A stretch of 64,000 nt of DNA, from contig PFSB01000006.1 of assembly GCA_002788855.1 (NCBI GenBank), positions 5,467 through 69,466 on the forward strand. Reading direction: 5' to 3'. The notes below the pieces were generated by a model. That model searched no databases. It was given only the letters and a program-made list of their open reading frames with translations, and was not told the origin of the DNA. The position numbers were made by a program, and so were the translations under genes. The stretch's first letter is position 1. The number at the start of each line of letters is the position of its first letter. This document shows positions 5,281 to 53,148 of the stretch, in pieces. The DNA comes from Candidatus Roizmanbacteria bacterium CG_4_9_14_0_2_um_filter_38_17. GTDB taxonomy: Bacteria > Patescibacteriota > Microgenomatia > GCA-00278855.

Positions 5281-6380
5281 AAAAAAAACCGCGTGTAGTA
5301 TTTATCTTACCTACATATAACGAGGTTGATAATATTAGCTTAGTAATTGAGCAGCTCCAGAATGTCTTTACTTCTATTTCTAGTTATACTTTTTCAATTC
5401 TTGTAGTTGATGATAAATCACCTGATAATACAGCAGGAATTGTCAATAAGTTAGGAAAAAAGTACTCAAATATAGAGCTTATTACAGGGGAAAAACAAGG
5501 CCTGGGAATTGCATATATACGTGGTATGAAATATGCAGAATCCAAGCTTCACGCTGATATATTTTTTAGTATGGATTCAGATTTATCTCACGATCCTTCT
5601 TTAATACCTCAGTTTTTACGCAAGATTGAGCAAGGCTCAGATATTGTTGTTGGAGCTAGATATATACCAGGTGGGTCAATTCCAGCTGATTGGGCATGGC
5701 AGCGTAAGCTATTTTCGATATTTGGGAATTTAATAATTCGTTTTGGCCTCATGATTCCTTCCATTCATGATTGGAGTAGTGGATATAGGGCGATTAAGGT
5801 TGAAGTATTTAAGAACATAGTGGATGGTTTAGATAAGTATAAAGGCTACACATTTCAGATGGCATATTTACATAGAGCTCTTAATGCAAAGTACAAAGTT
5901 GGGGAAGTACCGTTAAATTTTGTAGATAGAAAGCACGGTGAGTCAAAATTCATTCCTCTTGAATATATCTCGAACGTGCTGTTGTATATCCTCTTAAATT
6001 CAAGTTTTGTAAAATTTGGAGTTGTTGGAGTTGTTGGTTTTACAGTTAACCTGATAGGGCTTGAAGTATTTTATCGATTGGGATTTCATCCTGGAATTGC
6101 AGCTGCATTTGGGGCAGAGTTTGCGATTGTTTCAAATTTTATGTTTAATAATTTTTGGAGTTTTTCACATAAGAGTATTAAGAGGGGCGACGGATTACGA
6201 ATGAAGTTTTTAAGGTTTAATGGAGTTGCTGTGGGGGCTATTGTGATTCAAGCTCTTATCGTTGGCATAGGCACCAACATGTTTGGAGTAGATACGAGGT
6301 TCCTATTTTTACTATTGTCTTTAATACTTATAGTTCCATATAGTTATGTTATGTATAACCGTATTATATGGAAAAGCTAA
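5277..6380 (+). CDS. polyprenol-phosphate sugar synthase: GT2 (Dpm1-like) domain fused to C-terminal GtrA-like membrane domain
   Basis: GTG start in a GTGA overlap. N-terminal LPTYNE...VVDDKSPDNT...DSDLSHDP GT-A/DPM1 pattern; C-terminal 4-TM segment with a GtrA-family signature (GVVGFTVNL...SNFMFNNFWSF). An A9 tract lies at codons 2-4. Confidence 0.82.
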   Translation: MKKKPRVVFILPTYNEVDNISLVIEQLQNVFTSISSYTFSILVVDDKSPDNTAGIVNKLGKKYSNIELITGEKQGLGIAYIRGMKYAESKLHADIFFSMDSDLSHDPSLIPQFLRKIEQGSDIVVGARYIPGGSIPADWAWQRKLFSIFGNLIIRFGLMIPSIHDWSSGYRAIKVEVFKNIVDGLDKYKGYTFQMAYLHRALNAKYKVGEVPLNFVDRKHGESKFIPLEYISNVLLYILLNSSFVKFGVVGVVGFTVNLIGLEVFYRLGFHPGIAAAFGAEFAIVSNFMFNNFWSFSHKSIKRGDGLRMKFLRFNGVAVGAIVIQALIVGIGTNMFGVDTRFLFLLLSLILIVPYSYVMYNRIIWKS

Positions 6381-9849: not shown

Positions 9850-11332
9850 GACGTTTATTATAAGTATTGTTATTTTTCTGGTCTTGTATTTTGTTACACG
9901 ACTTATTAATTTAACAGCATTACCTATATTTACCGATGAGGCTATTTATATACGTTGGGCGCAGATTGCTAATCAAGATGCAAGTTGGCGATTTATCTCG
10001 CTAACTGACGGTAAACAACCTCTCTTTGTTTGGGGGGCCATGATAATGTTACGTTTTGTGAGTGATCCGGTCGTAGCTGGACGAGTAGTATCTGTATTTG
10101 CGGGAGCTGGGACACTAGTAGGAATTGGACTACTGGCTAGAGAACTTTTTAAGAATACGAGAACAGGTATAATCGCATCTTTCTTGTATTTAATCTATCC
10201 CTTTGGATTAATGTATGATCGAATGGCTCTCATGGATTCGATGGTGGCGATGTTTTCAGTTTGGTCACTGTATTTAGCTGTAATACTGGCTCGGCGTCCC
10301 AGATTGGATGTGTTGTTGTTGTTTGGCATGGTGCTGGGTGGAGCGACTCTGACTAAAACGAGCGGTTTCCTTAATATTTATCTGCTGCCAGTAACACTTT
10401 TACTATTTGATTGGCAAAAGAAAAATCGAAATATGCGACTTCTGACATGGTTTATATTTGCATTATTTGCGGTTTTTCTTTCCCAGGCATACTACAGTAT
10501 CCTGCGACTTTCACCTTGGTTTCATATGATAGCTCAGAAAGATACGACTTTTTTGTATACACTTACAGAGTGGAAAGAACATCCCTTCCGCTTTTTGTAT
10601 GGAAACCTAAGAGGAGAGCTTGATTGGGTTACACATTATATGACCTGGTCTCTTCTCCTACCAGTTATTGAAGCACTAGTTTTGTTCTGGAAAGAGACGA
10701 GGGTTAAGCTGTTACTTTTAATAATGTTTAGTGCTCCTTTGGTTGGATTGGCTCTATTTGGTAAAGTTCTTTATCCTCGTTTTGTCCTATTTATGACAAT
10801 GCCACTATTGGTTCTTGCAGCATGGAGCTTAAATTATATGACTGAGCGAATTAAACACAAAATGGTTCTAGTTCTGATATATGTGTTGTTGGTTAGCTAC
10901 TTAGTGTATTTTGACGCTAAGATATTGCTGAGTATTATTACGGCACCTTTGCCTAGATCTGACGCTGGTCAATATGTTAACGATTGGCCATCAGGTTGGG
11001 GAATTAGAGAGTCAGTGGACTTCTTAGCTAAAGAGGTTCAAGATAAAGAAATTACGGTGTTTACTGAGGGTAATTTTGGCTTATTACCGTATGGTATTGA
11101 GATTTATCTCGTAGATGATCCAAAACTTGAAATTATTGGAATGTGGCCTGTCCCAAGTGAATATACAGATCAGATGAAAGAAAAGATTGATCAAGAGCCA
11201 GTTTATTATATTTCGAATCGAGAGCAAGAGCTACCTTGGAAATGGAAAGCAGAGCTAATTGGTGAGTGGAATAAAGGCAGTAATACAACTCGCAAATTAA
11301 GGCTCTGGAAGCTTAAGGATAATGAATCGTAA
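9809..11332 (+). CDS. ArnT/PMT-like GT-C glycosyltransferase (COG1807-like)
   Basis: First loop has PIFTDEAIY (DE/DEx motif) followed by WRFISLTDGKQPL; 507 aa polytopic. Start could also be the ATG at 9824. Confidence 0.55.
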   Translation: MYCFIMFKDIQKNKTFIISIVIFLVLYFVTRLINLTALPIFTDEAIYIRWAQIANQDASWRFISLTDGKQPLFVWGAMIMLRFVSDPVVAGRVVSVFAGAGTLVGIGLLARELFKNTRTGIIASFLYLIYPFGLMYDRMALMDSMVAMFSVWSLYLAVILARRPRLDVLLLFGMVLGGATLTKTSGFLNIYLLPVTLLLFDWQKKNRNMRLLTWFIFALFAVFLSQAYYSILRLSPWFHMIAQKDTTFLYTLTEWKEHPFRFLYGNLRGELDWVTHYMTWSLLLPVIEALVLFWKETRVKLLLLIMFSAPLVGLALFGKVLYPRFVLFMTMPLLVLAAWSLNYMTERIKHKMVLVLIYVLLVSYLVYFDAKILLSIITAPLPRSDAGQYVNDWPSGWGIRESVDFLAKEVQDKEITVFTEGNFGLLPYGIEIYLVDDPKLEIIGMWPVPSEYTDQMKEKIDQEPVYYISNREQELPWKWKAELIGEWNKGSNTTRKLRLWKLKDNES

Positions 11333-17996: not shown

Positions 17997-18902
17997 ATGA
18001 ATAAAATATCAGTAGTTATTTCAGCTTACAATGAAGAAAAATTGCTTGAGGATTGTTTAAAATCTGTTACTTGGGCAGACCAGGTTATTGTTGTAGACAA
18101 TAACTCGACGGATGATACAGCCAAAATAGCCAAGAAGTATGCGGATGAAGTTTATTCTCGTCCTAATAACTTAATGCTCAATGTAAATAAGAATTATGGA
18201 TTTAGTAAAGCTACTGGTGATTGGATATTGAGCTTGGACGCTGATGAAAGAGCTACAGATGAGCTAAAAAAAGAGATTCTAAAAGAGTTACAAGTTACGA
18301 GTTACGAGTTACGAGGTGATGTTAGTGGTTACTGGATTCCCCGCAAGAACATTATTTTTGGTAAGTGGATACAACACACGGGTTGGTATCCAGACTACCA
18401 GCTAAGATTATTTCGTAGAGACAGAGGTAAGTTTGCCCAAAAGCATGTTCATGAGATGGTAGAGGTGAAAGGTAAAACAGAGCAGCTTAAAGGTCATATT
18501 CAGCACTATAACTACGAGACGGTAGACCAATTTTTTCAAAAGCTTTTGGTAGTGTATTCTCACAGCGAGGCAGATAATTTACTAAAGGATGGATATGTAT
18601 TTAACTGGAAGGACGCTATTATCATGCCGCTTCGTGAGTTTTTTAATCGTTATTTTGCGCATAAAGGATATCGTGATGGCTTACATGGGTTGATTTTATC
18701 TCTACTTATGAGTGTATATCATCTAGTGGTTTTTTTGAGATTATGGGAGCGCAAGAAGTATGTAGAGCAAGACGTTAACCTAGGTGAGGTTGCTTCGGAG
18801 GTTGGCGTGTATAGGCAAACATGGAAATATTGGGTGAAGCATGCAAAAGTTGATTTAGCTAATAACGGCGTTGCTAAGCTGGTAGCTAAATATTTTGGGT
18901 AA
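17997..18902 (+). CDS. GT2 family glycosyltransferase (soluble, WaaE/KdtX-like)
   Basis: ISVVISAYNEE...VIVVDNNSTDDT...LSLDADER motifs. Paralogous to the 20509 and 53133 genes. Contains an AGTTACR heptamer x4 repeat. Confidence 0.78.
   Translation: MNKISVVISAYNEEKLLEDCLKSVTWADQVIVVDNNSTDDTAKIAKKYADEVYSRPNNLMLNVNKNYGFSKATGDWILSLDADERATDELKKEILKELQVTSYELRGDVSGYWIPRKNIIFGKWIQHTGWYPDYQLRLFRRDRGKFAQKHVHEMVEVKGKTEQLKGHIQHYNYETVDQFFQKLLVVYSHSEADNLLKDGYVFNWKDAIIMPLREFFNRYFAHKGYRDGLHGLILSLLMSVYHLVVFLRLWERKKYVEQDVNLGEVASEVGVYRQTWKYWVKHAKVDLANNGVAKLVAKYFG
18287..18314 (+). repeat. heptanucleotide tandem repeat (GTTACAA)(GTTACGA)3 inside GT2 gene
   Basis: Read directly: ...gagttacaagttacgagttacgagttacgaggtg... 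Confidence 0.9.
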
Positions 18903-23489: not shown

Positions 23490-24504
23490 TCCATATCTAG
23501 ATAGTCTAGCTGGGGGTGAGAGATATATGCTCACCATAGCTTCTTGTTTGTCAAAAAAGCATAGAGTTGATGTTTTCTGGCCAAACATGGATATTATTGA
23601 AAGGGCTAAAAAAAGATTCAATCTGGATCTAGACGGTGTTTCTGTTAACGCCTCGATGCAGATAGGTAAGATTAGTCGTATTAAGCATACTTTTAAATAC
23701 GATGTAATTATTTACCTTTCAGATGGTAGCGTCCCGATTAGCTTAGCTAAGCACAATATACTTCATTTTCAGGTTCCTTTCACAAGCGTAAACGGGAGGA
23801 GCTTATCTAACCAGCTTAAGCTTAAGAGATTTAATCATTTTGTCTGTAATTCAGAATTTACAAAAAAATATATAGATCAAGAATTTGCAGTAAATAGCAG
23901 TGTTATATATCCTCCAGTCAATACAACAGAGTTTAAGGCGGGTAAAAAACAGAATACTATCTTAACTGTGGGAAGATTTCATCCGCTCAAAAAGCAAGAT
24001 GTGCTTATAGATACCTTTATTTCCATACAAGAAAAGTTAGGTGATTGGCAATTTGTAATAGCTGGGGGATTACTTGAGCAAGACAAGAGTTATTACCAGG
24101 CGCTTGTGGCAAAGTGTGTGGGTAATAATATTAAGCTATTGCCTAATATCAGCCATGAGGATTTAACTCGGCTATATGAAGAGACTAAGATCTACTGGCA
24201 TGGAACGGGTTATGGTGAAAAAAACCCAGAGAATATGGAGCACTTTGGAATAACAACAGTTGAGGCAATGGCGTCTGGTTGTATTCCGGTAGCTTTCAAA
24301 GGCGGTGGACAGAAAGAAATTATTAATGACAAGATAGGTGGTTATCTCTGGGATACTACAGATGAGTTAGTAAAATATACACAAGAGCTAGCTGGTTCAA
24401 CTGAATTATGGGAAAAACTTTCAAAGCAATCAAAGCAAGATGCAGTAAAATATTCTGAGGCAGAATTTTGTAAAAATTGGCAGGAGCTAATAGAAAGGCT
24501 ATGA
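23470..24504 (+). CDS. GT4 family glycosyltransferase (GT-B, retaining)
   Basis: C-terminal GT4 signature VGRFHPLKKQD...ETKIYWHGTGYGE...FGITTVEAMASGCIPVA...GG..EII. Confidence 0.8.
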   Translation: MKIGISSPYLDSLAGGERYMLTIASCLSKKHRVDVFWPNMDIIERAKKRFNLDLDGVSVNASMQIGKISRIKHTFKYDVIIYLSDGSVPISLAKHNILHFQVPFTSVNGRSLSNQLKLKRFNHFVCNSEFTKKYIDQEFAVNSSVIYPPVNTTEFKAGKKQNTILTVGRFHPLKKQDVLIDTFISIQEKLGDWQFVIAGGLLEQDKSYYQALVAKCVGNNIKLLPNISHEDLTRLYEETKIYWHGTGYGEKNPENMEHFGITTVEAMASGCIPVAFKGGGQKEIINDKIGGYLWDTTDELVKYTQELAGSTELWEKLSKQSKQDAVKYSEAEFCKNWQELIERL

Positions 24505-26720
24505 AAAGATACTTATTCCCATTGCTATTAGGGTTAATAGTAGTAGTTTTTTTTGCAAAAACTATTTTTCAAGGATTATTGCCTATTCCAGCAGATACTA
24601 TAGTCGGCTTGTATCATCCATTTCGAGATGCTGTTTTTCAGGAATATCCTAACGGGATTCCTTACAAGAATTTTTTAATAACTGATCCAGTTCGTCAGCA
24701 GTATCCTTGGCGAGAATTAGCTGTGTCGATTATGAAACAAGGTGAGTTACCGCTTTGGAATCCATATCAATTTGCGGGTACTCCACTTCTTGGTAATCTA
24801 CAGTCAGCAGCCCTATATCCCTTGAATATATTGTACTGGTTAATGCCATTTCAAATGACGTGGACAGTGCTGGTTATACTACAGCCACTTCTTGCTTTGT
24901 TATTTATGTACCTATATCTAAAAGAAATGAAACTATTTAAGCTACCTGCGACATTTGGTGCTGTAATATTTGCTTTTAGTGGGTTTTTCGTTGCTTGGCT
25001 AGAGTGGAACACTATTTTACACGTAATTTTATGGTTGCCATTATTATTGCTGGCGCTTGAAAAACTAAGAGTTAAATTGAGTCTTCTTTGGAGTACTATT
25101 TTTATTTTTGCTCTTTCTTCAAGTTTTCTTGCAGGGCATTTACAGGTCTTCTTCTATGTATCTTTGGTTCTTATGGCTTATTTAGTTACTATTTTGTATA
25201 GAAGTAAATCTAAGGGTAAGTTGGTGTTGCTACTTTCTGCTCTTTGCTCACTGTTTGCTGTAGTAACGTCTCTACAGTGGATTCAATTTGTAAAATTTTA
25301 CCTGCAGTCAGCGCGTGAAATTGATCAAGTATTATGGCAAAAGGAAGGCTGGTTTATACCAGCTAAGCATCTAGTTCAGTTTTTTGCTCCAGATTTTTTT
25401 GGCAATCCAGCAACCTTGAATTACTGGGGAGTTTGGAATTATGGTGAATTTATTGGGTATGTAGGAATAGCCGGCTTTGTATTTGCCCTTCTTGCAATTA
25501 TATACAGGAGAGATAGGAAGACATTCTTCTATATTGGATTATTAATCGGATCTATATTATTTGCTACAAATAATGTTATTGCTCAGTTACCTTTTAGGAT
25601 GGGTTTGCCACTAATTGGAACTAGTCAGCCGACCAGATTATTGGCCATAGTAGATTTTTCATTAGCGGTGCTAGCTGCACTTGGACTAGATTATTTTTTA
25701 CGTAGACAGCTAAATATAAAAAAGATAAGCACAGTATTAGTATTGTTTTTGAGCTTATTTATTGCATTATGGATATATACTGATACAGGTAGTGTAGAGC
25801 TTGCAGTAGCAAAACGTAATTTAATTTTACCAACAGGACTATTTATTATTACTGTTATCTTATTACTTAGTGCAATAGCTAGTAGAAATAAAAAGATTTT
25901 TTTGTTTACTGTTTACTGTTTACTGTTTACTGTAGTCTTTGACCTATTTCGGTTTGGCTGGAAATTCACTCCTTTTGTAGCTAGTGACTATCTCTTTCCT
26001 TCTACCAAAACCATTGAGTTTTTGCAGGAGCAAGAGGGGGTGTTTAGAATTATGGCGGCTGATAGGCGAATCTTGCCATCGAACTTTTCAACTTTCTATA
26101 GATTACAGGATGTTGGAGGATACGACCCACTATATCTTAAGAATTATGGAGAATTGGTGAGTGCCTGGGAGAAGAATAAACCAGACGCTTCCTTATTAGA
26201 GTTTAATCGCATATTATCACCTCAAAACTATGAGAGTAAGTTAGCGGATTTATTGAATGTGAAGTACATTCTTAGTTTAGATGAGTTAAGTTCATCAAAG
26301 CTAGTAGAAGTCTTTTCTGAAGGGCAAACCAAGGTGTATGAAAATATAGAAGTTTATCCACGGGTCTTTTTGGTATCCTCAGTTTTAAAAGTCAATAGTA
26401 AACAAGAGGCTATTAATAAAATATTTGAAGAGGGTCTGGATCTAGGTACTCAAGCAGTTGTATATGAAGATCTTAAGCTGGCTAATACGCCCTTAGTCAG
26501 ATCTGAGAACGTAAAGCTACTTAGCTATAGCCCTAATTCAGTTGTGGCGGAGACTGTGACTGAAGAGGAGCACTTATTGGTATTGAGCGATGTATATTAC
26601 CCTGAATGGAGTGTTTTTGTCGATGGAGTTTCAAAGGATATCATTGAAGTAGATTATGCTTTGCGCGGTGTGGTTGTACCTTCTGGAAAGCATAAAGTTG
26701 AATTTAAGATTAGAATATAA
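24501..26720 (+). CDS. YfhO-like GT-C membrane glycosyltransferase (paralog 2 of 4)
   Basis: QYPWRE...LWNPYQFAGTPLLGNLQSAALYPLN N-terminal block; C-terminal LSDVYYPEWSVFVDG...GKHKVEFK. Contains the (GTTTACT)4 repeat. ATG 24501 (ATGA overlap) is preferred over the ORF call at 24477. Confidence 0.65.
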   Translation: MKRYLFPLLLGLIVVVFFAKTIFQGLLPIPADTIVGLYHPFRDAVFQEYPNGIPYKNFLITDPVRQQYPWRELAVSIMKQGELPLWNPYQFAGTPLLGNLQSAALYPLNILYWLMPFQMTWTVLVILQPLLALLFMYLYLKEMKLFKLPATFGAVIFAFSGFFVAWLEWNTILHVILWLPLLLLALEKLRVKLSLLWSTIFIFALSSSFLAGHLQVFFYVSLVLMAYLVTILYRSKSKGKLVLLLSALCSLFAVVTSLQWIQFVKFYLQSAREIDQVLWQKEGWFIPAKHLVQFFAPDFFGNPATLNYWGVWNYGEFIGYVGIAGFVFALLAIIYRRDRKTFFYIGLLIGSILFATNNVIAQLPFRMGLPLIGTSQPTRLLAIVDFSLAVLAALGLDYFLRRQLNIKKISTVLVLFLSLFIALWIYTDTGSVELAVAKRNLILPTGLFIITVILLLSAIASRNKKIFLFTVYCLLFTVVFDLFRFGWKFTPFVASDYLFPSTKTIEFLQEQEGVFRIMAADRRILPSNFSTFYRLQDVGGYDPLYLKNYGELVSAWEKNKPDASLLEFNRILSPQNYESKLADLLNVKYILSLDELSSSKLVEVFSEGQTKVYENIEVYPRVFLVSSVLKVNSKQEAINKIFEEGLDLGTQAVVYEDLKLANTPLVRSENVKLLSYSPNSVVAETVTEEEHLLVLSDVYYPEWSVFVDGVSKDIIEVDYALRGVVVPSGKHKVEFKIRI
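25904..25931 (+). repeat. perfect heptanucleotide tandem repeat (GTTTACT)4 preceded by a T7 tract, inside YfhO-like gene
   Basis: Read directly: gatttttttGTTTACTGTTTACTGTTTACTGTTTACTgtag. Unit length is not a multiple of 3. Confidence 0.95.
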
Positions 26721-35611: not shown

Positions 35612-38059
35612 TTGAAGATTAAAATACAGAGTGTCTTTGTGCTTATTTTACTGTCGGTACTATCGGTTTTCCTGTTTCGGAATTATTTCTTTAAGGGTCA
35701 GGTTCCCTTTCCATCAAATCTTTTGGTTGCATATCATTCTCCTTGGGCCGATTATGAGTGGGAGGGATATCCAAATGGACCTCCTAATAAACCGATTGGC
35801 TTTGATAACCTAAAACTTTTCTATCCGTTTCGTAAATTTACGACAGAACAGCTGGCGCAGGGCCACATTCCGCTCTGGAACCCGTATGTATTTTCTGGCA
35901 ATATACATTTAGCTACTTATCAGTCGGCCGTTTTATATCCTCTAAATGTTTTGTACTTTGTGTTACCTCAGATAGACGCTTGGTCGCTTTTGATTATTGC
36001 GCAGTCCATCATCGCAGGTATCTTTACATATCTTTTCTTAAAGAAATTATCGCTGTCATTTAAATCCAGTCTTTTTGGGGCAGTGTTATTTGCATATTCA
36101 GGTTGGATGACTGTATGGAGTCAGGAATCACTTGTAATTGAGCACACGGCGCTTTGGTTGCCGATGATCTTATATTCTATTGAAAGACTATTTAGTAAAT
36201 ACTCATATGCTAATTGGCTGCTTCTCGTGTTGGGGCTATCATTATCCATACTGGCGGGATTTCTACAGATGAGTATTTATAGTTTTACTATAGCAGGGTT
36301 GTGGATTTTGTATAGATGGAAAAATAAAGACCGTCGACAGCTAAAACAGCTATACCCATTTATCTTTGGTCTGCTGGTAGCGATTTTGCTGGTGGGTATT
36401 CATCTTGTTCCAGCTATTGAGGCATTTTTTGGTTCTCCTCGAGGACAGGTGGATGCAAAATTCTTATTTGATGATTACTTAGCGAAGCCGTGGCATCTAC
36501 TTACATTTTTAATTCCAGACTTCTGGGGTAACCCCGGAGCATACAATTATTTTGGAAAGGGTTTTTACCATGAAAGTGTGATCTATTTTGGGATACCTGG
36601 ATTTATGCTTGCCCTATATGCTTTGTTTAGTGAAAGTGTATCTTTAAAGATCAATAAGATGGCTTTTTTTAAGTGGGTAGGTATAACTGCTTTGTTGCTT
36701 GGGTTTTCACCAGTAGGATGGCTTCTATACTATTCAAGATTGCCAATATTATCTGTGATTATGCCTTCGCGTATATTTATTATTGCTGTCTTTTCTCTGT
36801 CTGTGTTGTCAGCCTATGGGATGGAAAAGTTTTTGAGCGAAAAATGGAATAAGAAAGTGTGGCTAGGAATTATCATGGTTTTTGCATCTATATTTGCTAT
36901 TTCCTGGGGGGTTATTGGATTGGCAAAAATGGCAAATATATCTGACTATGTCTATAAATGGTACTTTCCGTATTTAAAAGCTATTAATGATCCCTTTGGA
37001 AATTTTGCAACAGTTTCATATAGGAATACAATATTGTCTTCACTGCTTTTTGGTGTGACAGTTATTGGGATATTTATGGGAGGGATTAAGAAATATTCAA
37101 TAAGTAAATTATCTTATTATGTGCTAATTGTAATTTCTCTAGTATCATCTTTCTATTTTGCAAATAAGTATCTCTATTTTTCTGAGCGTAAATTTGTGTT
37201 TCCACAGGTTCCTGTTCTTACTAAGCTGCAAGAGATAGCAGGATTAAATAGAGTCTGGGGATATGGAAACGGATATATTGAGAAAAATATGCTTATGTAT
37301 TATGGTCTTTATTCACCCGAAGGTTACGATGCCTTATTTCCTCAAGAATATGGGGAATTACTATTCTCTCAGGAAGTACAAGGTTCAATCACTAAGCAAA
37401 TTCTTCGAACTGACGCTAATATTAGACAGGCATCTGAACATGAAGCAGTTCTAGGTAATCCGTATCGGACTAAGCTTCTATCTCTCTTGGGAGTTAAATA
37501 TATTCTAGAAGCAAAAGAGGGAGAAGGTAAGGACTGGAATACAACTGAAGAACGTTTCCCAGCTGAGAGTTTTAAACTAGAATGGGAGGATGACAAGTAT
37601 CGCATCTATCAAAACCTAGACTCACTACCTCGTTCATTTTTGGTTAATGACTATGTAGTACTAAAAGATAAACAAGAGATAGCAGACACGTTGTTTAGTG
37701 AAACCTTTGATCTATCCAAAACGGTAATTGTTGAAGAAGAGCTATCCTTTGACCGATCTCAAAACTGTGCTGTGGGCACATCAAAAATAACATCATATAC
37801 CCCTAATAGGGTAGAGATAGAAACAGATTCAAGGTGCCCAGCTATCCTGTTCTTATCTGATAACTACTATCCTGGTTGGAATGCATACATAGACGAAGAG
37901 AAAACTAAGATTTATAGGAGTGATTATAGTTTTAGAGCAGTAACAGTTCCTGAAGGAATACATAAAGTACAGTTTAAGTATGAGCCACTGTCGTTTAAAT
38001 TGGGTATCTTGCTAACTTCGCTTGGATTTATTTCTTTATTAGTTATAATTAGAAGGTGA
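35612..38059 (+). CDS. YfhO-like GT-C membrane glycosyltransferase (paralog 4 of 4)
   Basis: FYPFRKF...IPLWNPYVFSGNIHLATYQSAVLYPLN; C-terminal LSDNYYPGWNAYIDEEKTKIYRSDYSFRAVTVPEGIHKVQFKYEP; 815 aa. Confidence 0.65.
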   Translation: MKIKIQSVFVLILLSVLSVFLFRNYFFKGQVPFPSNLLVAYHSPWADYEWEGYPNGPPNKPIGFDNLKLFYPFRKFTTEQLAQGHIPLWNPYVFSGNIHLATYQSAVLYPLNVLYFVLPQIDAWSLLIIAQSIIAGIFTYLFLKKLSLSFKSSLFGAVLFAYSGWMTVWSQESLVIEHTALWLPMILYSIERLFSKYSYANWLLLVLGLSLSILAGFLQMSIYSFTIAGLWILYRWKNKDRRQLKQLYPFIFGLLVAILLVGIHLVPAIEAFFGSPRGQVDAKFLFDDYLAKPWHLLTFLIPDFWGNPGAYNYFGKGFYHESVIYFGIPGFMLALYALFSESVSLKINKMAFFKWVGITALLLGFSPVGWLLYYSRLPILSVIMPSRIFIIAVFSLSVLSAYGMEKFLSEKWNKKVWLGIIMVFASIFAISWGVIGLAKMANISDYVYKWYFPYLKAINDPFGNFATVSYRNTILSSLLFGVTVIGIFMGGIKKYSISKLSYYVLIVISLVSSFYFANKYLYFSERKFVFPQVPVLTKLQEIAGLNRVWGYGNGYIEKNMLMYYGLYSPEGYDALFPQEYGELLFSQEVQGSITKQILRTDANIRQASEHEAVLGNPYRTKLLSLLGVKYILEAKEGEGKDWNTTEERFPAESFKLEWEDDKYRIYQNLDSLPRSFLVNDYVVLKDKQEIADTLFSETFDLSKTVIVEEELSFDRSQNCAVGTSKITSYTPNRVEIETDSRCPAILFLSDNYYPGWNAYIDEEKTKIYRSDYSFRAVTVPEGIHKVQFKYEPLSFKLGILLTSLGFISLLVIIRR

Positions 38060-38772
38060 AAGTATCTATTATTGTTCCTGTATACAATGAAGAAAAGACG
38101 ATTTGTAAGGTTCTGTCGAGATTGCAAAAGTTAGGTAAACAAGACTTTAGTTATGAGATTATTGTAGTTGACGATGGATCTACTGATACTAGTGTATTGG
38201 AAATCAAAAAATCTAAATTACAAATTCCAAAGCTTAAAGTAGTATCTCATAGAAAAAATAAGGGGAAGGGGATGGCGGTGCGAACAGGTATTAAGCATGC
38301 AACGGGTGATTATGTAGTTATTCAGGATGCTGATCTGGAATACGATCCGCAAGATATACCTAGACTAGTTAAAGTCCTAGGCGTGGCTGGGGTTGATGTT
38401 GTATATGGCACAAGGTTGGATCGCTTGCCAAACTTGCGACGTGATGAGCGTGTTCCGCTTTTTCTATTACATTTTTTTGGTAACCGATTTCTAAGTTTAG
38501 TTACCAGTATACTTTATGGTCAGTGGATAACTGATATGGAAACCTGCTATAAGTTGTTTCCACGTAAGGCTCTTACAAATATTAGGCTTGAGGCGAAGGG
38601 GTTTGAGTTTGAGCCAGAGATAACGGCAAAGTTATTAAAAAAAGGTTTTCATATTTATGAAATACCTATTAAGACAAATCCACGAGGATATGACGATGGA
38701 AAGAAGCTTGATACTATTCGTGATGGAGTTCGCGCATTGTGGACGTTGATAAAATATCGAATATATGACTAA
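38056..38772 (+). CDS. GT2 polyprenol-phosphate glycosyltransferase (Dpm1-like)
   Basis: VSIIVPVYNEEKTI...IIVVDDGSTDTS...VIQDADLEYDP motifs; ATGA/GTGA-type overlap with the upstream gene. Confidence 0.8.
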   Translation: MKVSIIVPVYNEEKTICKVLSRLQKLGKQDFSYEIIVVDDGSTDTSVLEIKKSKLQIPKLKVVSHRKNKGKGMAVRTGIKHATGDYVVIQDADLEYDPQDIPRLVKVLGVAGVDVVYGTRLDRLPNLRRDERVPLFLLHFFGNRFLSLVTSILYGQWITDMETCYKLFPRKALTNIRLEAKGFEFEPEITAKLLKKGFHIYEIPIKTNPRGYDDGKKLDTIRDGVRALWTLIKYRIYD

Positions 38773-48481: not shown

Positions 48482-50138
48482 AAGAATAGTTATATTGTTG
48501 GTTATTACAATAATCTCGGTATCGTTGCGGTTTTGGCAGCTAGGCCAGGTGCCACCGTCACCAGACTGGGATGAAGCAGCCTTGGGATATAACGCCTATT
48601 CAATATTGGAGACGGGTAGAGATGAGTATGGGACCTTATTGCCTGTGATTTTGCGTTCCTTTGATGATTATAAGCCAGCTTTATATGGGTACTTAGTAGT
48701 ATCATCGGTGGCGCTGTTTGGTCTTAATGTTTGGGCGGTGCGACTACCCTCTGCATTAATAGGATCTTTGACGGTAGTTATGTCGTATTTCTTGGTTATT
48801 GAGCTTTTCAGACTAGGAGGTAGACAGAAGCAGAGGAAGTTAGCTTATTTAACGGCATTTCTGTTGGCGATTAGCCCCTGGCATTTGCAGTTTTCGCGTA
48901 TAGCGTTTGAGTCTAACGTAGGATTAGCTTTTAACATATTTGCACTTTGGTCCTTTTTAGTAGGGTTGCGTAAACAGATGTTTTTATTTGTTTCAGCTAT
49001 ATTTTTTGCCTTAAGCTTGTATGTTTATCAGAGTGAGAAGGTTTTTGTACCGATGCTACTATTAGTTCTTTTAATAGTATTTTTTGAAAAACTATGGAAA
49101 ATAAAAGGGAAAGTGGTACTAGTTATTGGAGCTCTTCTAATATCTTCTGCTCCTTTTATATATGCAACATTTTCTAACCCAGATGCGCTACTTAGAGCAA
49201 AGGGAGTAAGCGTTTTTGCTGATCAAACACCCTTTTTGGAGACCACAGTAGAAAGACTTATCAGAGATAGGGAGTCTGGGGATTATCTAGGTGTGGTGTT
49301 GGATAATCGTCGAGTAAAATACTCGTTCGAGTTTGCTAAGGGATACTTGTCTCATTTTGATCTAAACTGGTTATTTATTGCTGGTGACCAACCACGTCAT
49401 CAGCCATCTGGTTTTGGGCATTTGTATCTTATGGAGCTACCGTTTATGCTGGCTGGTATTTATGGACTTGTATTTGGGAATTTTTCTCGTAGGACAAAAA
49501 AGCTAATATTTGCGTGGTTCCTCATAACTCCCTTACCCGCTGCTTTTACTACCGGAGTTCCACATCCAATCCGTACACTTAACTTCCTTCCCTTATTCCA
49601 GATATTTACTGCACTAGGATTATTAGTTTTTATAAAAACAATTTTCAATTTTCAATTTTCAATTTTCAATTTCAAGGTTAAATATTTAGTGTTCCTATTG
49701 AGTTTTTTATTTATAATATTCAATTTTCTGTACTATTTTAATCAGTATTTTGTTCAACAGAACTATTTCCTTTCCCAGGTTTGGCAGTATGGATATAAAG
49801 AGGTAGTTGTAGCTGTAGAGGAGGTACAGGATAAATATTCAACGATAGTCGTAACAAATAAGCCTCATCTTGATCAGTCATATATATTTTTCTTGTTTTA
49901 TACGAAGTATAATCCTGCTATGTATCAGGCGGGAGGAGGGACTGTTACAGGAGGATTTGCTGAAACACATACTGGTTTTGGTAAATATGATTTTAGACCA
50001 ATTAACTGGAATGAAGAAGTAAAAGACGGCAGTACATTATATATTGGAAGACCAGAAGATTTTCCAGGGGATGTCAAAGTACTAAAAGAGATTAATTTTC
50101 TCGATGGGACACCTGCTATAAAGATTGTGGAGGGTTAA
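48474..50138 (+). CDS. PMT_2/ArnT-like GT-C glycosyltransferase (paralog 4 of 4)
   Basis: LRFWQLGQVPPSPDWDEAALGYNAYSILETGRDEYG...FDDYKPALYGY. Contains the (CAATTTT)4 repeat. Confidence 0.6.
   Translation: MNKRIVILLVITIISVSLRFWQLGQVPPSPDWDEAALGYNAYSILETGRDEYGTLLPVILRSFDDYKPALYGYLVVSSVALFGLNVWAVRLPSALIGSLTVVMSYFLVIELFRLGGRQKQRKLAYLTAFLLAISPWHLQFSRIAFESNVGLAFNIFALWSFLVGLRKQMFLFVSAIFFALSLYVYQSEKVFVPMLLLVLLIVFFEKLWKIKGKVVLVIGALLISSAPFIYATFSNPDALLRAKGVSVFADQTPFLETTVERLIRDRESGDYLGVVLDNRRVKYSFEFAKGYLSHFDLNWLFIAGDQPRHQPSGFGHLYLMELPFMLAGIYGLVFGNFSRRTKKLIFAWFLITPLPAAFTTGVPHPIRTLNFLPLFQIFTALGLLVFIKTIFNFQFSIFNFKVKYLVFLLSFLFIIFNFLYYFNQYFVQQNYFLSQVWQYGYKEVVVAVEEVQDKYSTIVVTNKPHLDQSYIFFLFYTKYNPAMYQAGGGTVTGGFAETHTGFGKYDFRPINWNEEVKDGSTLYIGRPEDFPGDVKVLKEINFLDGTPAIKIVEG
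49639..49675 (+). repeat. heptanucleotide tandem repeat (CAATTTT)4 plus one degenerate copy (CAATTTC) inside PMT_2-like gene
   Basis: Read directly: aaaaCAATTTTCAATTTTCAATTTTCAATTTTCAATTTCaagg. Confidence 0.95.
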
Positions 50139-51459: not shown

Positions 51460-53148
51460 ATGAAGAAAAATAGATCTATAATCTTACTACTAATATTTGC
51501 AATCCTTCCTCTGTTTAGCTTATTTCATTCTGGAATGTTTGTCGGACACGATACTCAACTACATGTTGCTAGAATTGCACACTTTTATAAAAGCCTAAAT
51601 GAAGGAATATTAATTCCTCGCTGGGGAGGGGATCTGAACTTAGGTTATGGACACCCAGCTTTTATATTTTATTATTCTCTGACATCCTATGTTGCTTCGG
51701 CGTTTCACTTTTTGGGCTTTTCACTCGTGTTTTCAACTAAGCTTGTGTACGGCCTAGGATTTATGGGTAGTGGCTTGGCAATGTATCTATGGGTGAGACA
51801 GTTATTTAGAGGTAAGGAGGGCCTGCCCGCCGATGAGGCGGGTTTGATTAGTGGGCTATTGTATATGTATGCACCGTATAGATTTGTTGATCTTTATATA
51901 AGAGGGGCAATTGGGGAAAACTTCTTTTTTATCTGGCCTCCTCTTGTACTATACTTTTTAACAAAACTACAAAGAGGTTATAAATTTAAGCATGTACTGG
52001 GAGCTTCTCTTTCACTCACTGCCTTGATTCTATCTCACAACGCCTCCAGTCTTATGTTTTTACCCTTTATTGGCCTATATGGACTGCTACTGGTTCAGAA
52101 AGCTAAGAATAAGATAATGTTTATCGCACACCAGCTATTAGTAGCTGGATTAGGTTTTGGAGTAAGTGCTTTCTTCTGGATACCTGCTTTGTTTGAGAGC
52201 AAGTACACACTGCAGAACGTTATTATGGGAGATGGGATATTTAAGCATTTTGAGCCTTTTTCAAGACTTCTTTATTCTCCTTGGAATCTAGGAGGGACTG
52301 GACAGTTTAGTATCCAGGTCGGAATTATCCAGTGGCTGGTTATGTTGTTAGTAACGTTTATGCTGTTAAAAAGATTCCGTGGTCTATCTTCTACCAAAGG
52401 TCCGGTAAATGATAAATTACTAGTTATTCTTTCATATATAACTTTCTGGGTTGCAATATTAATGATATTGCCTGCATCTAAGCCGGTCTATGAAATAATA
52501 ACCATCTTTAAGAAATTTCAGTTTCCTTGGAGATGGCTATCTTTAGCTATTTTTCCAGCAGCACTACTCTCTGGATATCTCGTACGTATTTTACCCAAAA
52601 AATACTCTTTATTTATTATCTATTGTTTATTGTTTACTGTTCCACTACTGACTGTTAATATGTGGAAGGTGCGTGACTATGACTATAGCCCAGATAGCTT
52701 CTATCTAGATGAGTATAAGGGAACCACTGATTCATCGGGAGAGAATTCACCAGTGTGGTCCATTAGATTTATGGAGCAAACGCCAAAAGCTAACATAGAG
52801 GTTGTTGAGGGTGAAGGTGAAGTACAGGATAAGAAACATAGCTCAATACTGCATGAGTATGAAGTAACGGCTGTAGACGACAAAGTTAGGGTACTTGATA
52901 ACACGCTGTATTTTCCAGGTTGGAGTGTGTATGTGGATGGGAGTAAGCTATTTCTGCATGATGTGTGGTGGCAGGATCCAAATTACAGAGGGCTTATTAC
53001 ATTTTTTGTTCAGAAGGGTCAGCATGAGATAATTGTTAAGTTTGAAAGAACAAAAATACGCTTATTAGCAGAGATTATTTCGCTGGTTAGTATCGGTCTG
53101 TTAGTTAGCTTACCAATGTTTTATAAAGTTCTATGGTCAAAAAAGTAA
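51460..53148 (+). CDS. membrane protein, H-D-x3-H family GT-C candidate (paralog group B, 4 of 5)
   Basis: MFVGHDTQLHVARIA...IPRWGGDLNLGYGHPAFIFYYSL; C-terminal YFPGWSVYVDGSK...GQHEIIVKFERTKIR. Confidence 0.5.
   Translation: MKKNRSIILLLIFAILPLFSLFHSGMFVGHDTQLHVARIAHFYKSLNEGILIPRWGGDLNLGYGHPAFIFYYSLTSYVASAFHFLGFSLVFSTKLVYGLGFMGSGLAMYLWVRQLFRGKEGLPADEAGLISGLLYMYAPYRFVDLYIRGAIGENFFFIWPPLVLYFLTKLQRGYKFKHVLGASLSLTALILSHNASSLMFLPFIGLYGLLLVQKAKNKIMFIAHQLLVAGLGFGVSAFFWIPALFESKYTLQNVIMGDGIFKHFEPFSRLLYSPWNLGGTGQFSIQVGIIQWLVMLLVTFMLLKRFRGLSSTKGPVNDKLLVILSYITFWVAILMILPASKPVYEIITIFKKFQFPWRWLSLAIFPAALLSGYLVRILPKKYSLFIIYCLLFTVPLLTVNMWKVRDYDYSPDSFYLDEYKGTTDSSGENSPVWSIRFMEQTPKANIEVVEGEGEVQDKKHSSILHEYEVTAVDDKVRVLDNTLYFPGWSVYVDGSKLFLHDVWWQDPNYRGLITFFVQKGQHEIIVKFERTKIRLLAEIISLVSIGLLVSLPMFYKVLWSKK

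What the first reader, a model, noticed from the sequence alone, without database searches (positions are those of the whole stretch)
25897..25932. Perfect heptanucleotide repeat (GTTTACT)x4 plus T7 tract inside a YfhO-like glycosyltransferase gene: candidate slipped-strand phase-variation switch
A 7-nt unit repeated four times perfectly (28 nt) is very unlikely by chance in 64 kb. Gain or loss of one unit shifts the reading frame, because 7 is not divisible by 3; this is the classic contingency-locus mechanism of ON/OFF switching of surface-glycan genes. Here it would truncate the enzyme before its last TM helix and C-terminal YYPEW domain. Phase variation by heptamer repeats in a CPR-like glycosylation island would be new.
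Basis: seen in the sequence. Interest (0 to 1): 0.75.

Follow-up and report, generated by a model that had tools for sequence, protein, structure and literature searches.

The report
Slip-prone heptamer repeat in glycosyltransferase gene
A perfect 7-base repeat sits in frame inside a surface-sugar enzyme gene of an uncultivated groundwater bacterium; it belongs to a widespread, previously undescribed class of such repeats that can knock the gene out by slipping, although here every available copy is in the 'on' state.

Summary
The repeat is real: T7 (25897-25903) followed by (GTTTACT)x4 (25904-31), 4.4 perfect copies, far beyond chance. It encodes the last transmembrane helix of a YfhO-type GT-C glycosyltransferase. 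Gain or loss of 1-2 units hits a stop at once.

All close relatives (over 30 contig records from several samples) carry exactly 4 in-frame copies. None of 171 heptamer-type arrays in about 80 related genomes is out of frame.

The repeat is not an oddity, though. In 1.4 Mb of Microgenomates glycosylation genes, perfect arrays of at least 3 copies are almost all heptamers (33, against 0.05 expected). They recur at fixed sites.

At this exact site, orthologs of about 50% identity carry different homogenised units in the same register (TGTTTAC, TGTTATT, TGCTTGT). That is concerted evolution of the DNA repeat, not of the peptide. One related strain has lost 2 units there and is frameshifted, a natural OFF allele.

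Best reading: a slippage-active frameshift site that switches rarely and is mostly ON. Whether the switching is selected is not shown. Heptamer phase variation of glycosyltransferases is already known (Neisseria pglE). I found no report of it in CPR bacteria.

The parts
24477..26720 (+). YfhO-type GT-C glycosyltransferase gene. It is 747 aa from the TTG start; the ATG at 24501 gives the 739-aa form seen in most records.
   Evidence: ORF. Pfam YfhO E=2.4e-17. AF2 model pLDDT 84.7, pTM 0.86. The best PDB fold matches are all GT-C enzymes: AftD, STT3, ArnT, PglB, Emb.
25903..25933 (+). Perfect heptanucleotide array: TGTTTAC x4.4, which is GTTTACT x4 at 25904-25931. It encodes LFTVYCLLFTV (aa 476-486).
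25897..25903 (+). T7 tract directly 5' of the array. It is probably a decayed fifth unit (ATTTTTT) and is not notable on its own.
   Evidence: The window has 48 A/T runs of 7 or more. Phased print.
25890..25967 (+). Coding region of the last transmembrane helix (aa 472-497), which contains the array. A soluble C-terminal domain of about 250 aa follows.
   Evidence: Hydropathy. AF2 secondary structure H472-497, followed by a beta-rich domain.
25933..25942 (+). Out-of-frame stop codons directly after the array: TAG 25933-35 and TGA 25940-42. They terminate both shifted frames.
25230..25264 (+). Degenerate heptamer array in the same gene (CTACTTT CTGCTCT TTGCTCA CTGTTTG CTGTAGT), in the TM helix before the conserved QW. 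Many orthologs have perfect arrays at this site.
   Evidence: Perfect arrays at this site in L003, L017, L024 and L018 and in about 25 of 120 orthologous proteins.
18285..18315 (+). Heptamer array GAGTTAC x4.4 (91% match; perfect over 18293-18315) in GT2 gene 17997-18902. It lies in the loop before GYWIPRKN.
   Evidence: The L003 allele is 6 aa shorter and locally unrelated. Six genomes have arrays at the same site.
49639..49672 (+). Perfect heptamer array CAATTTT x4.9 in PMT_2-family GT-C gene 48474-50138.
   Evidence: The identical protein is on 17+ contigs. Orthologs differ here by indels of 5-8 aa.
52612..52641 (+). Imperfect heptamer array (82% match) in PTPS_related GT-C gene 51460-53148. 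It encodes LFIIYCLLFTV with the same TTTACTG-type unit as the array under study.
38208..38242 (+). Decayed heptamer array after the DDGSTD motif of GT2 gene 38056-38772. Syntenic orthologs in other genomes carry perfect arrays at this site.

Best explanation
The (GTTTACT)x4 tract is an old tandem DNA repeat that still slips. It is embedded, in frame, in the last transmembrane helix of a YfhO-type GT-C glycosyltransferase.

It is one member of a class of short (3 to 5.6 unit) heptanucleotide arrays found across the lineage. These arrays sit at fixed, structurally tolerant positions of GT2, YfhO and PMT_2-type glycosyltransferase genes in Microgenomates (CPR) bacteria.

Proposed mechanism: slipped-strand misalignment, and probably conversion within the array, keeps the units identical. 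Any gain or loss of 1 or 2 units shifts the frame and runs into TAG or TGA directly after the array. This removes part of the last TM helix and the C-terminal domain of about 250 aa, giving a null allele. A further slip that restores the frame can reverse it.

The tract is therefore a frameshift ON/OFF site with a low switching rate and a strong bias towards ON in nature.

Shown: the repeat itself, the in-silico consequences of slippage, the class-wide enrichment, the concerted evolution, and one natural 2-unit frameshift allele at the orthologous site.

Inferred: that slippage occurs at measurable frequency in this population, that it is reversible, and that it has any adaptive value.
For: Repeat and its consequences.

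Enrichment specific to period 7:
- 33 perfect arrays in coding sequence, against 0.05 per codon shuffle; no arrays of period 3, 6 or 9.
- Among TRF arrays scoring 50 or more, periods 7, 14 and 21 dominate (45, 25 and 14).

Arrays recur at homologous sites in different genomes.

At the exact site of this finding, phased against the conserved Asp codon:
- the window has TGTTTAC x4;
- L094 has TGTTATT x4.9;
- L095 has TGCTTGT x5.3;
- L016, L007 and L003 have degenerate versions.
Substitutions shared by all units of an array indicate homogenisation after the lineages diverged.

Higher-order a-b-a-b-a arrays that are 100% perfect show slippage after mutation.

Natural length variants:
- L096 has a 14-nt (2-unit) loss at the orthologous array, which splits the gene into 511-aa and 223-aa ORFs.
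- P0273/L097 has an exact 21-nt (7-aa) in-frame loss in another YfhO array.

Of 137 YfhO-like genes examined, only two are internally disrupted, and the one that is frameshifted is frameshifted at the array.

Gene context: a 53-ORF glycosylation island. Array-bearing genes are 62/65 glycosyltransferases, against about 83/119 in the background.
Against: - At this locus every available record has exactly 4 copies. This covers the cluster members P0121-P0125, P0001 and P0004; P0122 on at least 24 contigs from several samples; L002 and L004; and the JGI flank-and-gap scan, which found only 89-nt spacings.
- No OFF state was found among 171 arrays in about 80 species representatives. However, that test misses OFF alleles whose array has contracted below detection, as in L096.
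- Four units is short for a fast switch, and arrays never exceed about 5.6 units in about 260 orthologous proteins and 1.5 Mb of DNA. This looks like selection against high mutability.
- Homogenisation could proceed by conversion that leaves length unchanged, without any OFF intermediates.
- L096 was found by looking specifically in clusters of array-bearing proteins, so its frequency cannot be estimated.
- Reads were not available, so heterogeneity within the population is untested.
Confidence: 0.55

Rival explanations
1. Mutational by-product, not used as a switch. Heptamer-biased slippage or conversion creates and homogenises arrays wherever the protein tolerates any hydrophobic or polar filler. 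Only in-frame lengths survive. Frameshift variants are ordinary deleterious mutations that are purged. The arrays persist because their mutational load is negligible.
For: - The ON length is fixed in more than 30 records and in all species representatives.
- There is a strict ceiling of about 5.6 units.
- Arrays replace an existing helix without changing segment length: the DDGSTD-to-NxGKG distance is 23 aa with or without an array. They sit mid-gene rather than near the 5' end.
- Heptameric SSRs are over-represented in many bacteria for unknown reasons, with a preference for four units in Xanthomonas and Nostoc (PMC4692102).
Against: - Repeat structure is conserved across orthologs of about 50% identity while the peptide is not.
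- Triplet-compatible arrays, which would be harmless, are completely absent.
- Arrays are enriched in GT2, YfhO and PMT_2 genes relative to GT1, flippase and other genes of the same loci (OR about 9, p=2e-5, a rough test).
- An OFF allele reached consensus level in one natural sample.
Confidence: 0.33
2. The repeat is an inert relic or a protein-level requirement: a fixed TM-helix coding sequence that happens to be periodic, with no appreciable slippage.
For: The peptide motif Y-x-L-L-x-T is shared with a 58%-identical ortholog (L007), and the copy number is invariant among close relatives.
Against: - More distant orthologs have different peptides (LFVICYLLFVI, LVACCLLLVACC), but each is encoded by its own perfect heptamer array in the same register.
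- Most orthologs have ordinary non-periodic helices at this site.
- Chance is excluded.
- Unit-number variants exist at orthologous and paralogous arrays.
Confidence: 0.05
3. The periodic sequence serves another nucleic-acid-level function, for example a protein- or RNA-binding site, DNA structure or translational pausing. On this view the frameshift potential is incidental.
For: Array length clusters narrowly at 31-39 nt, and a limited vocabulary of units recurs across genes and genomes: AATATCA, AAATTTC, AATCTCA, ATTGGRA, TTTACTN.
Against: - There is no common consensus between arrays in TM and loop positions.
- The units are what an AT-rich genome allows if all three frames must be free of stops (my inference).
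- The window has no Rfam match.
- No structure or binding test was run.
Confidence: 0.05

Closest known systems
SSR contingency loci in glycosyltransferase genes of host-adapted bacteria, for example Neisseria meningitidis pglE (heptanucleotide repeat; PMC7157529), H. influenzae LOS genes (PMC2651432) and Pasteurella multocida GT genes (PMC9176279)
   Same: A non-triplet tandem repeat lies inside the ORF of a surface-glycan glycosyltransferase. A unit change shifts the frame and truncates the enzyme. Many paralogous glycan genes in one island carry such tracts. The organism has a small genome and a lifestyle dependent on other cells.
   Different: There are only 4 units here (at most 5.6 in the class), against typically 6-40. 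No copy-number variation was found among available strains at this locus. OFF alleles are rare (1-2 of 137 genes) rather than making up about half. The arrays sit mid-gene in TM helices or loops, at positions conserved across a phylum-level group. The organism is an uncultivated groundwater CPR bacterium, and switching has not been measured.
Heptanucleotide SSRs of Haemophilus influenzae: hmw1A/hmw2A promoters, intragenic (AATTTTG)14 in hmw1A, and (AACAACC)n in a TonB-dependent receptor gene (PMC2651432)
   Same: The unit is 7 nt, A/T-rich units are similar (AATTTTG against CAATTTT/AATTTTC here), and there are intragenic cases with frameshifted alleles among strains.
   Different: The Haemophilus tracts have 6-38 units and differ between almost every strain. 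Most act on promoters.
Over-represented heptameric repeats of bacterial genomes: GGGNATC in Xanthomonas/Nostoc (PMC4692102), cyanobacterial STRR (as cited there), and TAACTGA repeats of Beggiatoaceae (PMC4679880)
   Same: The 7-nt period is strongly over-represented across a lineage while other periods are not. There is a marked preference for about four units.
   Different: Those repeats are mainly intergenic, have one consensus unit per genome, and are G-rich (G-quadruplex) or proposed RNA-level regulators. They are under-represented in coding sequence. The arrays here are coding, in frame, on the sense strand, A/T-rich, and have many different units.

Membership tests
SSR contingency locus (slipped-strand phase variation) | Perfect tandem repeat, with a unit length not divisible by 3, inside the ORF | tested here: met
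   25903-25933, period 7, 4.4 copies, 100% match.
SSR contingency locus (slipped-strand phase variation) | Gain or loss of a unit abolishes the full-length product | tested here: met
   In silico, changes of 1-2 units in either direction give 483 or 490 aa instead of 747, with stops directly after the array.
SSR contingency locus (slipped-strand phase variation) | Repeat number differs among strains or assemblies at this locus | tested here: not met
   All close relatives have 4 copies: L002, L004, P0121-P0125, and P0122 on at least 24 contigs. The JGI flank-and-gap scan found only the 89-nt spacing.
SSR contingency locus (slipped-strand phase variation) | Repeat-number variants, including out-of-frame ones, at orthologous tracts in related organisms | tested here: met
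   L096 has lost 14 nt at the orthologous array, and the gene is split into 511-aa and 223-aa ORFs. L097 has lost 21 nt in frame at another YfhO array. These are single cases only.
SSR contingency locus (slipped-strand phase variation) | ON and OFF states are both common among genomes | tested here: not met
   0 of 171 arrays are out of frame. Only 2 of 137 YfhO-like genes are disrupted, one by the array.
SSR contingency locus (slipped-strand phase variation) | High-frequency, reversible switching within a clonal population | not testable with these tools
   This needs read-level data or culture. Neither was available.
SSR contingency locus (slipped-strand phase variation) | Association with genes for surface structures | tested here: met
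   62 of 65 array-bearing genes are GT2, YfhO, PMT_2 or a similar family. The window is a glycosylation island. The background is also rich in glycosyltransferases.
YfhO / GT-C fold glycosyltransferase | Sequence match to the family model above its curated threshold | tested here: met
   Pfam PF09586, 63.1 bits against a cut-off of 28.5.
YfhO / GT-C fold glycosyltransferase | Polytopic N-terminal membrane domain plus a soluble C-terminal domain, with GT-C fold similarity | tested here: met
   About 13 hydrophobic helices, the last at 472-497, followed by a beta-rich domain. The top Foldseek PDB hits are AftD, STT3, ArnT, PglB and Emb (E down to 5e-6).
YfhO / GT-C fold glycosyltransferase | Lipid-linked sugar transferase activity | not testable with these tools
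   This would need a biochemical assay.
Genome-wide over-represented heptameric repeats (STRR / GGGNATC type) | 7-nt unit, over-represented relative to other periods, about 4 units preferred | tested here: met
   Compared with PMC4692102.
Genome-wide over-represented heptameric repeats (STRR / GGGNATC type) | Intergenic location with one consensus, G-rich unit per genome | tested here: not met
   69 of 81 arrays lie wholly inside genes. In every perfect array checked, the only long open frame across the array is on the array's strand. The units are diverse and A/T-rich.

The most novel reading that the evidence does not exclude
Microgenomates (CPR) bacteria maintain a lineage-wide 'phasome'. 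On this reading, dozens of surface-glycan glycosyltransferase genes per genome each carry a short heptanucleotide array at a conserved position. Selection preserves the repeat structure, and hence the mutability, rather than the encoded peptide. Populations can then reversibly switch individual glycan-modifying enzymes off and on, for example under phage or host pressure. This would be the first contingency-locus system described in an uncultivated, non-pathogenic episymbiont radiation, and one that runs on unusually short 7-nt arrays.
Probability: 0.33. Interest if true: 0.8.

Novelty: new variant of a known kind. Interest (0 to 1): 0.62.

Why it matters
CPR/Patescibacteria have tiny genomes, few regulators and very large, fast-evolving glycosylation islands. 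How they vary their surface is unknown. If these heptamer arrays are reversible frameshift sites, they give a concrete, testable mechanism for surface-glycan variation in this radiation. The test needs only existing metagenomic reads: count repeat-length variants.

Whatever their function, the pattern is an unusually clean case of concerted evolution inside coding sequence. It combines a more than 600-fold excess specific to period 7, positions conserved across orthologs of about 50% identity, units homogenised within each species, and a hard ceiling of about 5.6 units.

It also bears on the long-noted but unexplained over-representation of heptameric repeats in bacteria. In practice, these sites are likely places for frameshifts, contig breaks and mis-annotation in CPR MAGs.

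Tried and rejected
1. Chance or low-complexity origin. Rejected by codon shuffles and by the spectrum of repeat periods.

2. The T7 tract as a second switch. Rejected: the window has 48 comparable A/T runs, and the L003-type allele has no T7 at that position.

3. Assembly collapse of a longer repeat. Rejected by inference: arrays of 29-39 nt are shorter than the final assembly k-mers. The same lengths appear in differently named and labelled assemblies (k141_, NODE_, scaffold records), including two records titled as chromosomes, CP066685.1 and OY970292.1.

4. An apparent OFF allele in L024. Rejected: the two array copies flank a run of N, which is a masking or scaffold artefact.

5. Six apparent 'restorable' frameshifts (L011, L012, L014, L015, L017, L084). 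Rejected as OFF states: these arrays lie across the stop of a GT2 gene and the start of the next YfhO gene, so any shift fuses two intact genes.

6. The split YfhO gene in L006. This is a nonsense substitution, not slippage.

7. Length differences of 7-8 aa in clusters P0131 and P0019. These are alternative start codons, not array changes.

8. Arrays as insertions of +21 nt relative to orthologs. Not generally true: the DDGSTD-to-NxGKG distance is 23 aa with or without an array, and TM-site arrays align without gaps. Loop-site arrays do show indels of 5-8 aa.

9. The JGI metagenome flank-and-gap scan found only two contigs, both with the standard spacing.

10. Literature searches for heptanucleotide or SSR terms together with CPR or Patescibacteria terms found nothing.

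11. The test of gene-class specificity is weak, because every locus fetched is itself a glycosylation island.
Full report
OBSERVATION. The sequence at 25897-25933 reads TTTTTTT GTTTACT GTTTACT GTTTACT GTTTACT GT. Tandem Repeats Finder gives 25903-25933, period 7, 4.4 copies, 100% matches. My own scan for perfect repeats agrees. The tract lies in ORF 24477-26720 (+), which matches Pfam YfhO (63 bits, cut-off 28.5).

An AlphaFold2 model built with 34 homologs (pLDDT 84.7, pTM 0.86) shows a polytopic membrane domain whose last helix is residues 472-497. A beta-rich C-terminal domain follows. The best PDB fold matches are all GT-C glycosyltransferases: AftD, STT3, ArnT, PglB and Emb. The array encodes residues 476-486 (LFTVYCLLFTV), so it encodes most of the last TM helix rather than lying before it.

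Removing or adding one or two units gives products of 483 or 490 aa. This is because TAG (25933-35) and TGA (25940-42) lie directly after the array in the two other frames. The T7 tract is not special: the window has 48 A/T runs of 7 or more.

ORIGIN AND CONTEXT. The window is part of PCTA01000017.1 of GCA_002786635.1. The records that carry this protein name it Candidatus Roizmanbacteria, of the Microgenomates/CPR group. Of 53 ORFs, 11 match GT2, 10 match PMT_2, at least 4 match YfhO, 3 match PTPS_related and 2 match GT1. The rest include flippases and genes for rhamnose and UDP-glucose-dehydrogenase sugar-nucleotide synthesis. The window has no tRNA gene and no Rfam match.

THE REPEAT IS ONE OF A CLASS. 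In the window, the only perfect tandem repeats of at least 3 copies and any unit of 2-12 nt are heptamers. Each lies in a different glycosyltransferase gene:
- 18293-18315, in a GT2 gene;
- 25903-25933, in the YfhO-type gene;
- 49639-49672, in a PMT_2 gene;
- an imperfect fourth at 52612-52641, in a PTPS_related gene. It encodes LFIIYCLLFTV with the same TTTACTG-type unit.

I fetched 80 loci (1.44 Mb) around YfhO orthologs from species-representative genomes. Their record titles name Levybacteria/Levyibacteriota, Gottesmanbacteria, Roizmanbacteria, Patescibacteria or Microgenomates. Many others carry the title 'uncultured Gammaproteobacteria', which looks like a mislabel. In these loci, perfect repeats of at least 3 copies are distributed as follows: period 7, 34; period 4, 10; period 6, 2; period 3, 1.

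Within coding sequence there are 33 heptamer arrays, against 0.05 per codon shuffle, and essentially nothing at any other period. With TRF at score 50 or more, periods 7, 14 and 21 dominate (45, 25 and 14). The period-14 arrays are perfect a-b-a-b-a alternations of two heptamers that differ by one base. That pattern is what slippage after a point mutation produces.

Array lengths are multimodal: about 19-20, 24-25, 31-33 (the main mode) and 37-39 nt, with none longer. In about 260 orthologous proteins, the longest peptide with 7-aa periodicity is 13 aa, which is at most 5.6 units.

Sixty-nine of the 81 arrays lie wholly inside genes. In every perfect array checked, the only long open frame across the array is on the array's strand. 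Sixty-two of 65 array-bearing genes are GT2, YfhO, PMT_2 or a similar family, against about 83 of 119 randomly chosen genes from the same loci. Fisher's test gives OR 9, p=2e-5. This test is rough, because gene length and spurious ORFs were not controlled.

CONSERVED POSITIONS AND CONCERTED EVOLUTION. Arrays recur at the same protein positions in different genomes:
- after the DDGSTD motif of small GT2 enzymes;
- before GYWIPRKN in another GT2 family;
- at about aa 120 of PMT_2-type enzymes;
- in YfhO at about aa 196, about aa 250 and about aa 475;
- across the GT2-stop/YfhO-start junction.

In the syntenic GT2 of about 238 aa, the distance from DDGSTD to NxGKG is 23 aa whether the segment is an ordinary helix, a perfect array or a decayed array. 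The arrays therefore replace sequence rather than lengthen it.

At the exact site of this finding, I phased the heptamers against the invariant Asp codon of the FDLFRFGWKF motif. The window has TGTTTAC x4. L094 (P0076, about 50% identical) has TGTTATT x4.9. L095 (P0019) has TGCTTGT x5.3. L016, L007 and the 86%-identical L003-type allele have degenerate versions in the same register and of the same length. The peptides differ (LFTVYCLLFTV, LFVICYLLFVI, LVACCLLLVACC).

So substitutions have spread to all units within each lineage. The DNA repeat is what is conserved, not the helix sequence. Most orthologs (more than 60 of 74) have no periodicity at this site, so arrays are also lost.

IS IT A SWITCH? 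EVIDENCE AGAINST. Every close relative has exactly four copies:
- L002 (99% identical protein);
- L004, a mosaic allele from the same JGI sample as a window-type contig;
- cluster members P0121-P0125 and P0001;
- P0122, which is carried on at least 24 contigs from JGI 3300025150, 3300007987, 3300007988, ENA ERZ27293362 and other samples.

A scan of JGI metagenome contigs with both flanks and a variable gap found two contigs, both with the standard 89-nt spacing. The CAATTTT x4.9 gene is likewise identical on 17+ contigs.

I tested 171 heptamer-type arrays for whether a change of 7 or 14 nt in either direction would restore a longer ORF. None is a true OFF allele. The L024 hit is a run of N flanked by duplicated array copies. 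Six others are arrays that span a gene junction. In classical phasomes a large share of tracts is OFF in any given genome (my background knowledge).

EVIDENCE FOR. The OFF test misses arrays that have contracted below detection, so I also inspected 90%-identity protein clusters of array-bearing orthologs. Two variants emerged.

The first is P0280, 511 aa, in the cluster of the 761-aa P0061. It ends ...KVWINTLFVICC FRSFQIRLEIYALCSF. Its contig L096 reads TTATTTG TTATTTG TTG TTTTCGAT, where the related L094 has TTATTTG x4.9 before TTTGAT. From codon counts of the P0061 protein, the L096 tract is 14 nt (two units) shorter than in its in-frame cluster relatives. The rest of the gene continues in another frame and is called as a separate 223-aa YfhO ORF. 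This is a natural frameshift allele at the site orthologous to the finding, at consensus level in one metagenome.

The second is P0273/L097, which lacks exactly 7 aa (21 nt) of the LFIILNS-LFIIL repeat present in its 742-aa relatives.

In addition, two NCBI partial proteins start in or just after that array (P0262, P0264), and contig L012 ends inside an array. These are weak hints of heterogeneity within populations.

Of 137 YfhO-like genes in all loci, only L096 (array frameshift) and L006 (a nonsense substitution) are internally disrupted.

INTERPRETATION. The tract is best described as a slippage-active array embedded in frame. It can generate null alleles, and in a relative it demonstrably has. 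In nature it sits almost always in the ON length.

Two readings remain close. In the first, it is a low-rate contingency switch maintained because reversible loss of individual glycan enzymes is useful. In the second, it is a nearly neutral product of heptamer-biased slippage at permissive sites.

The points in favour of selection are:
- the exclusive non-triplet periodicity;
- conservation of repeat structure over peptide;
- the bias towards glycosyltransferase genes;
- an organism profile (small genome, few regulators, a lifestyle dependent on other cells) that matches where phase variation is usually found, as stated in the abstract of PMC11475388 shown.

The points against are:
- the short arrays with a length ceiling;
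- the mid-gene positions;
- the near absence of OFF alleles;
- the invariance at this locus.

I put about 0.55 on 'it works as a reversible frameshift site whose variants occur and can become dominant'. Adaptive value is unproven. I put about 0.33 on 'by-product, not used'.

COMPARISON WITH WHAT IS KNOWN. Heptanucleotide-repeat phase variation of a glycosyltransferase is established for Neisseria pglE (PMC7157529). Heptanucleotide SSRs, including intragenic ones with frameshifted alleles, are described in H. influenzae (PMC2651432).

Over-representation of heptameric repeats in bacteria, and a preference for four units, has been reported for intergenic, G-rich repeats in Xanthomonas and Nostoc (PMC4692102). 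The arrays here differ in being coding, in frame, A/T-rich and diverse in unit.

Full-text searches combining SSR, heptanucleotide or phase-variation terms with CPR, Patescibacteria or Microgenomates terms returned nothing relevant. The class-wide pattern therefore appears to be undescribed in the library I could search.

LIMITS. No reads could be examined. All the loci fetched are glycosylation islands, so gene-class specificity is only weakly tested. The OFF and in-frame variants are single cases found by targeted inspection. The caps on cluster and contig look-ups were exhausted.

Noticed in passing
L011 4980-5009, L012 3632-3685, L014 2940-2969, L015 5194-5228, L017 6174-6220, L084 6397-6425: Degenerate heptamer arrays (AAATCAA/CTCAAAA type) lie exactly across the stop codon of a GT2 gene (tail ...YARLWEMQ...) and the overlapping start of the downstream YfhO gene. 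A 7-nt deletion or a 14-nt insertion would fuse the two genes into one ORF of about 1030 aa. This could affect translational coupling or create fusion proteins.
   Followed up: partly
L007 about 2170-2222 and about 5450-5501; window 25903-25933 against 52612-52641; L024 1159-1183 against 10710-10748: Different genes in the same genome carry the same array unit. Two YfhO paralogs of L007 both encode KKLLHI(T/A)HYALLITI; the corresponding paralogs in the window are only about 33% identical. In the window, the YfhO and PTPS_related genes share TTTACTG-type units. In L024, a second gene and the YfhO gene share TTTTATC. This suggests arrays are exchanged or converted between genes.
   Followed up: partly
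L004 (Ga0210057_1060385) against the window; L003 10708-10775 against L009: The alleles of this gene are mosaics. P0004 is identical to the window protein through the middle of the gene, including the array, but diverges at both ends. L003 differs from its near-identical relative L009 by a patch of about 65 nt that contains a perfect TTTACTC x4.4 array. This points to frequent recombination between alleles.
   Followed up: partly
L006 1172-1507 and 1526-3391: The orthologous YfhO gene is split by a nonsense substitution (TAT to TAG) within a small cluster of point differences. The cause is not a repeat change, so this is a second, independent way in which the gene is found inactivated.
   Followed up: yes
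window 58220-58257: A perfect 20-nt direct repeat x1.9 (CACATTCCAGGAATGTGTAT). Each copy contains the palindrome CACATTCC/GGAATGTG. It lies near the junction of ORFs 57078-58328 and 58325-59704.
   Followed up: no
L041 14772-14891 and 3728-3807: A perfect 39-nt tandem repeat x3.1, and a related 39-nt x2.1 repeat about 11 kb away in the same locus. These are the highest-scoring tandem repeats in the whole data set and are unrelated to the heptamer class.
   Followed up: no
L024 1159-1338; L012 12314-12342; proteins P0262, P0264: Assemblies tend to break at arrays. A run of N is flanked on both sides by the same CTTTTAT array. One contig ends inside an AATTTCC array. Two partial NCBI proteins begin in or just after the LFIILNS array. 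This may reflect repeat-length heterogeneity in the sequenced populations.
   Followed up: partly
L011-L014, L017, L021, L023, L024 and many others (record titles): Many species-representative MAG records that carry these Microgenomates-type glycosylation islands are titled 'uncultured Gammaproteobacteria bacterium'. This looks like a systematic taxonomic mislabel of the deposited records.
   Followed up: no
window 48474-50138 and orthologs (alignment A3, columns 420-440): The loop that holds the CAATTTT array varies among orthologs by 5, 7 or 8 aa. Several orthologs carry NIKYQIS-like peptides there (ISKIKYQIA...), the same peptide type that AATATCA arrays encode in unrelated GT2 genes.
   Followed up: partly
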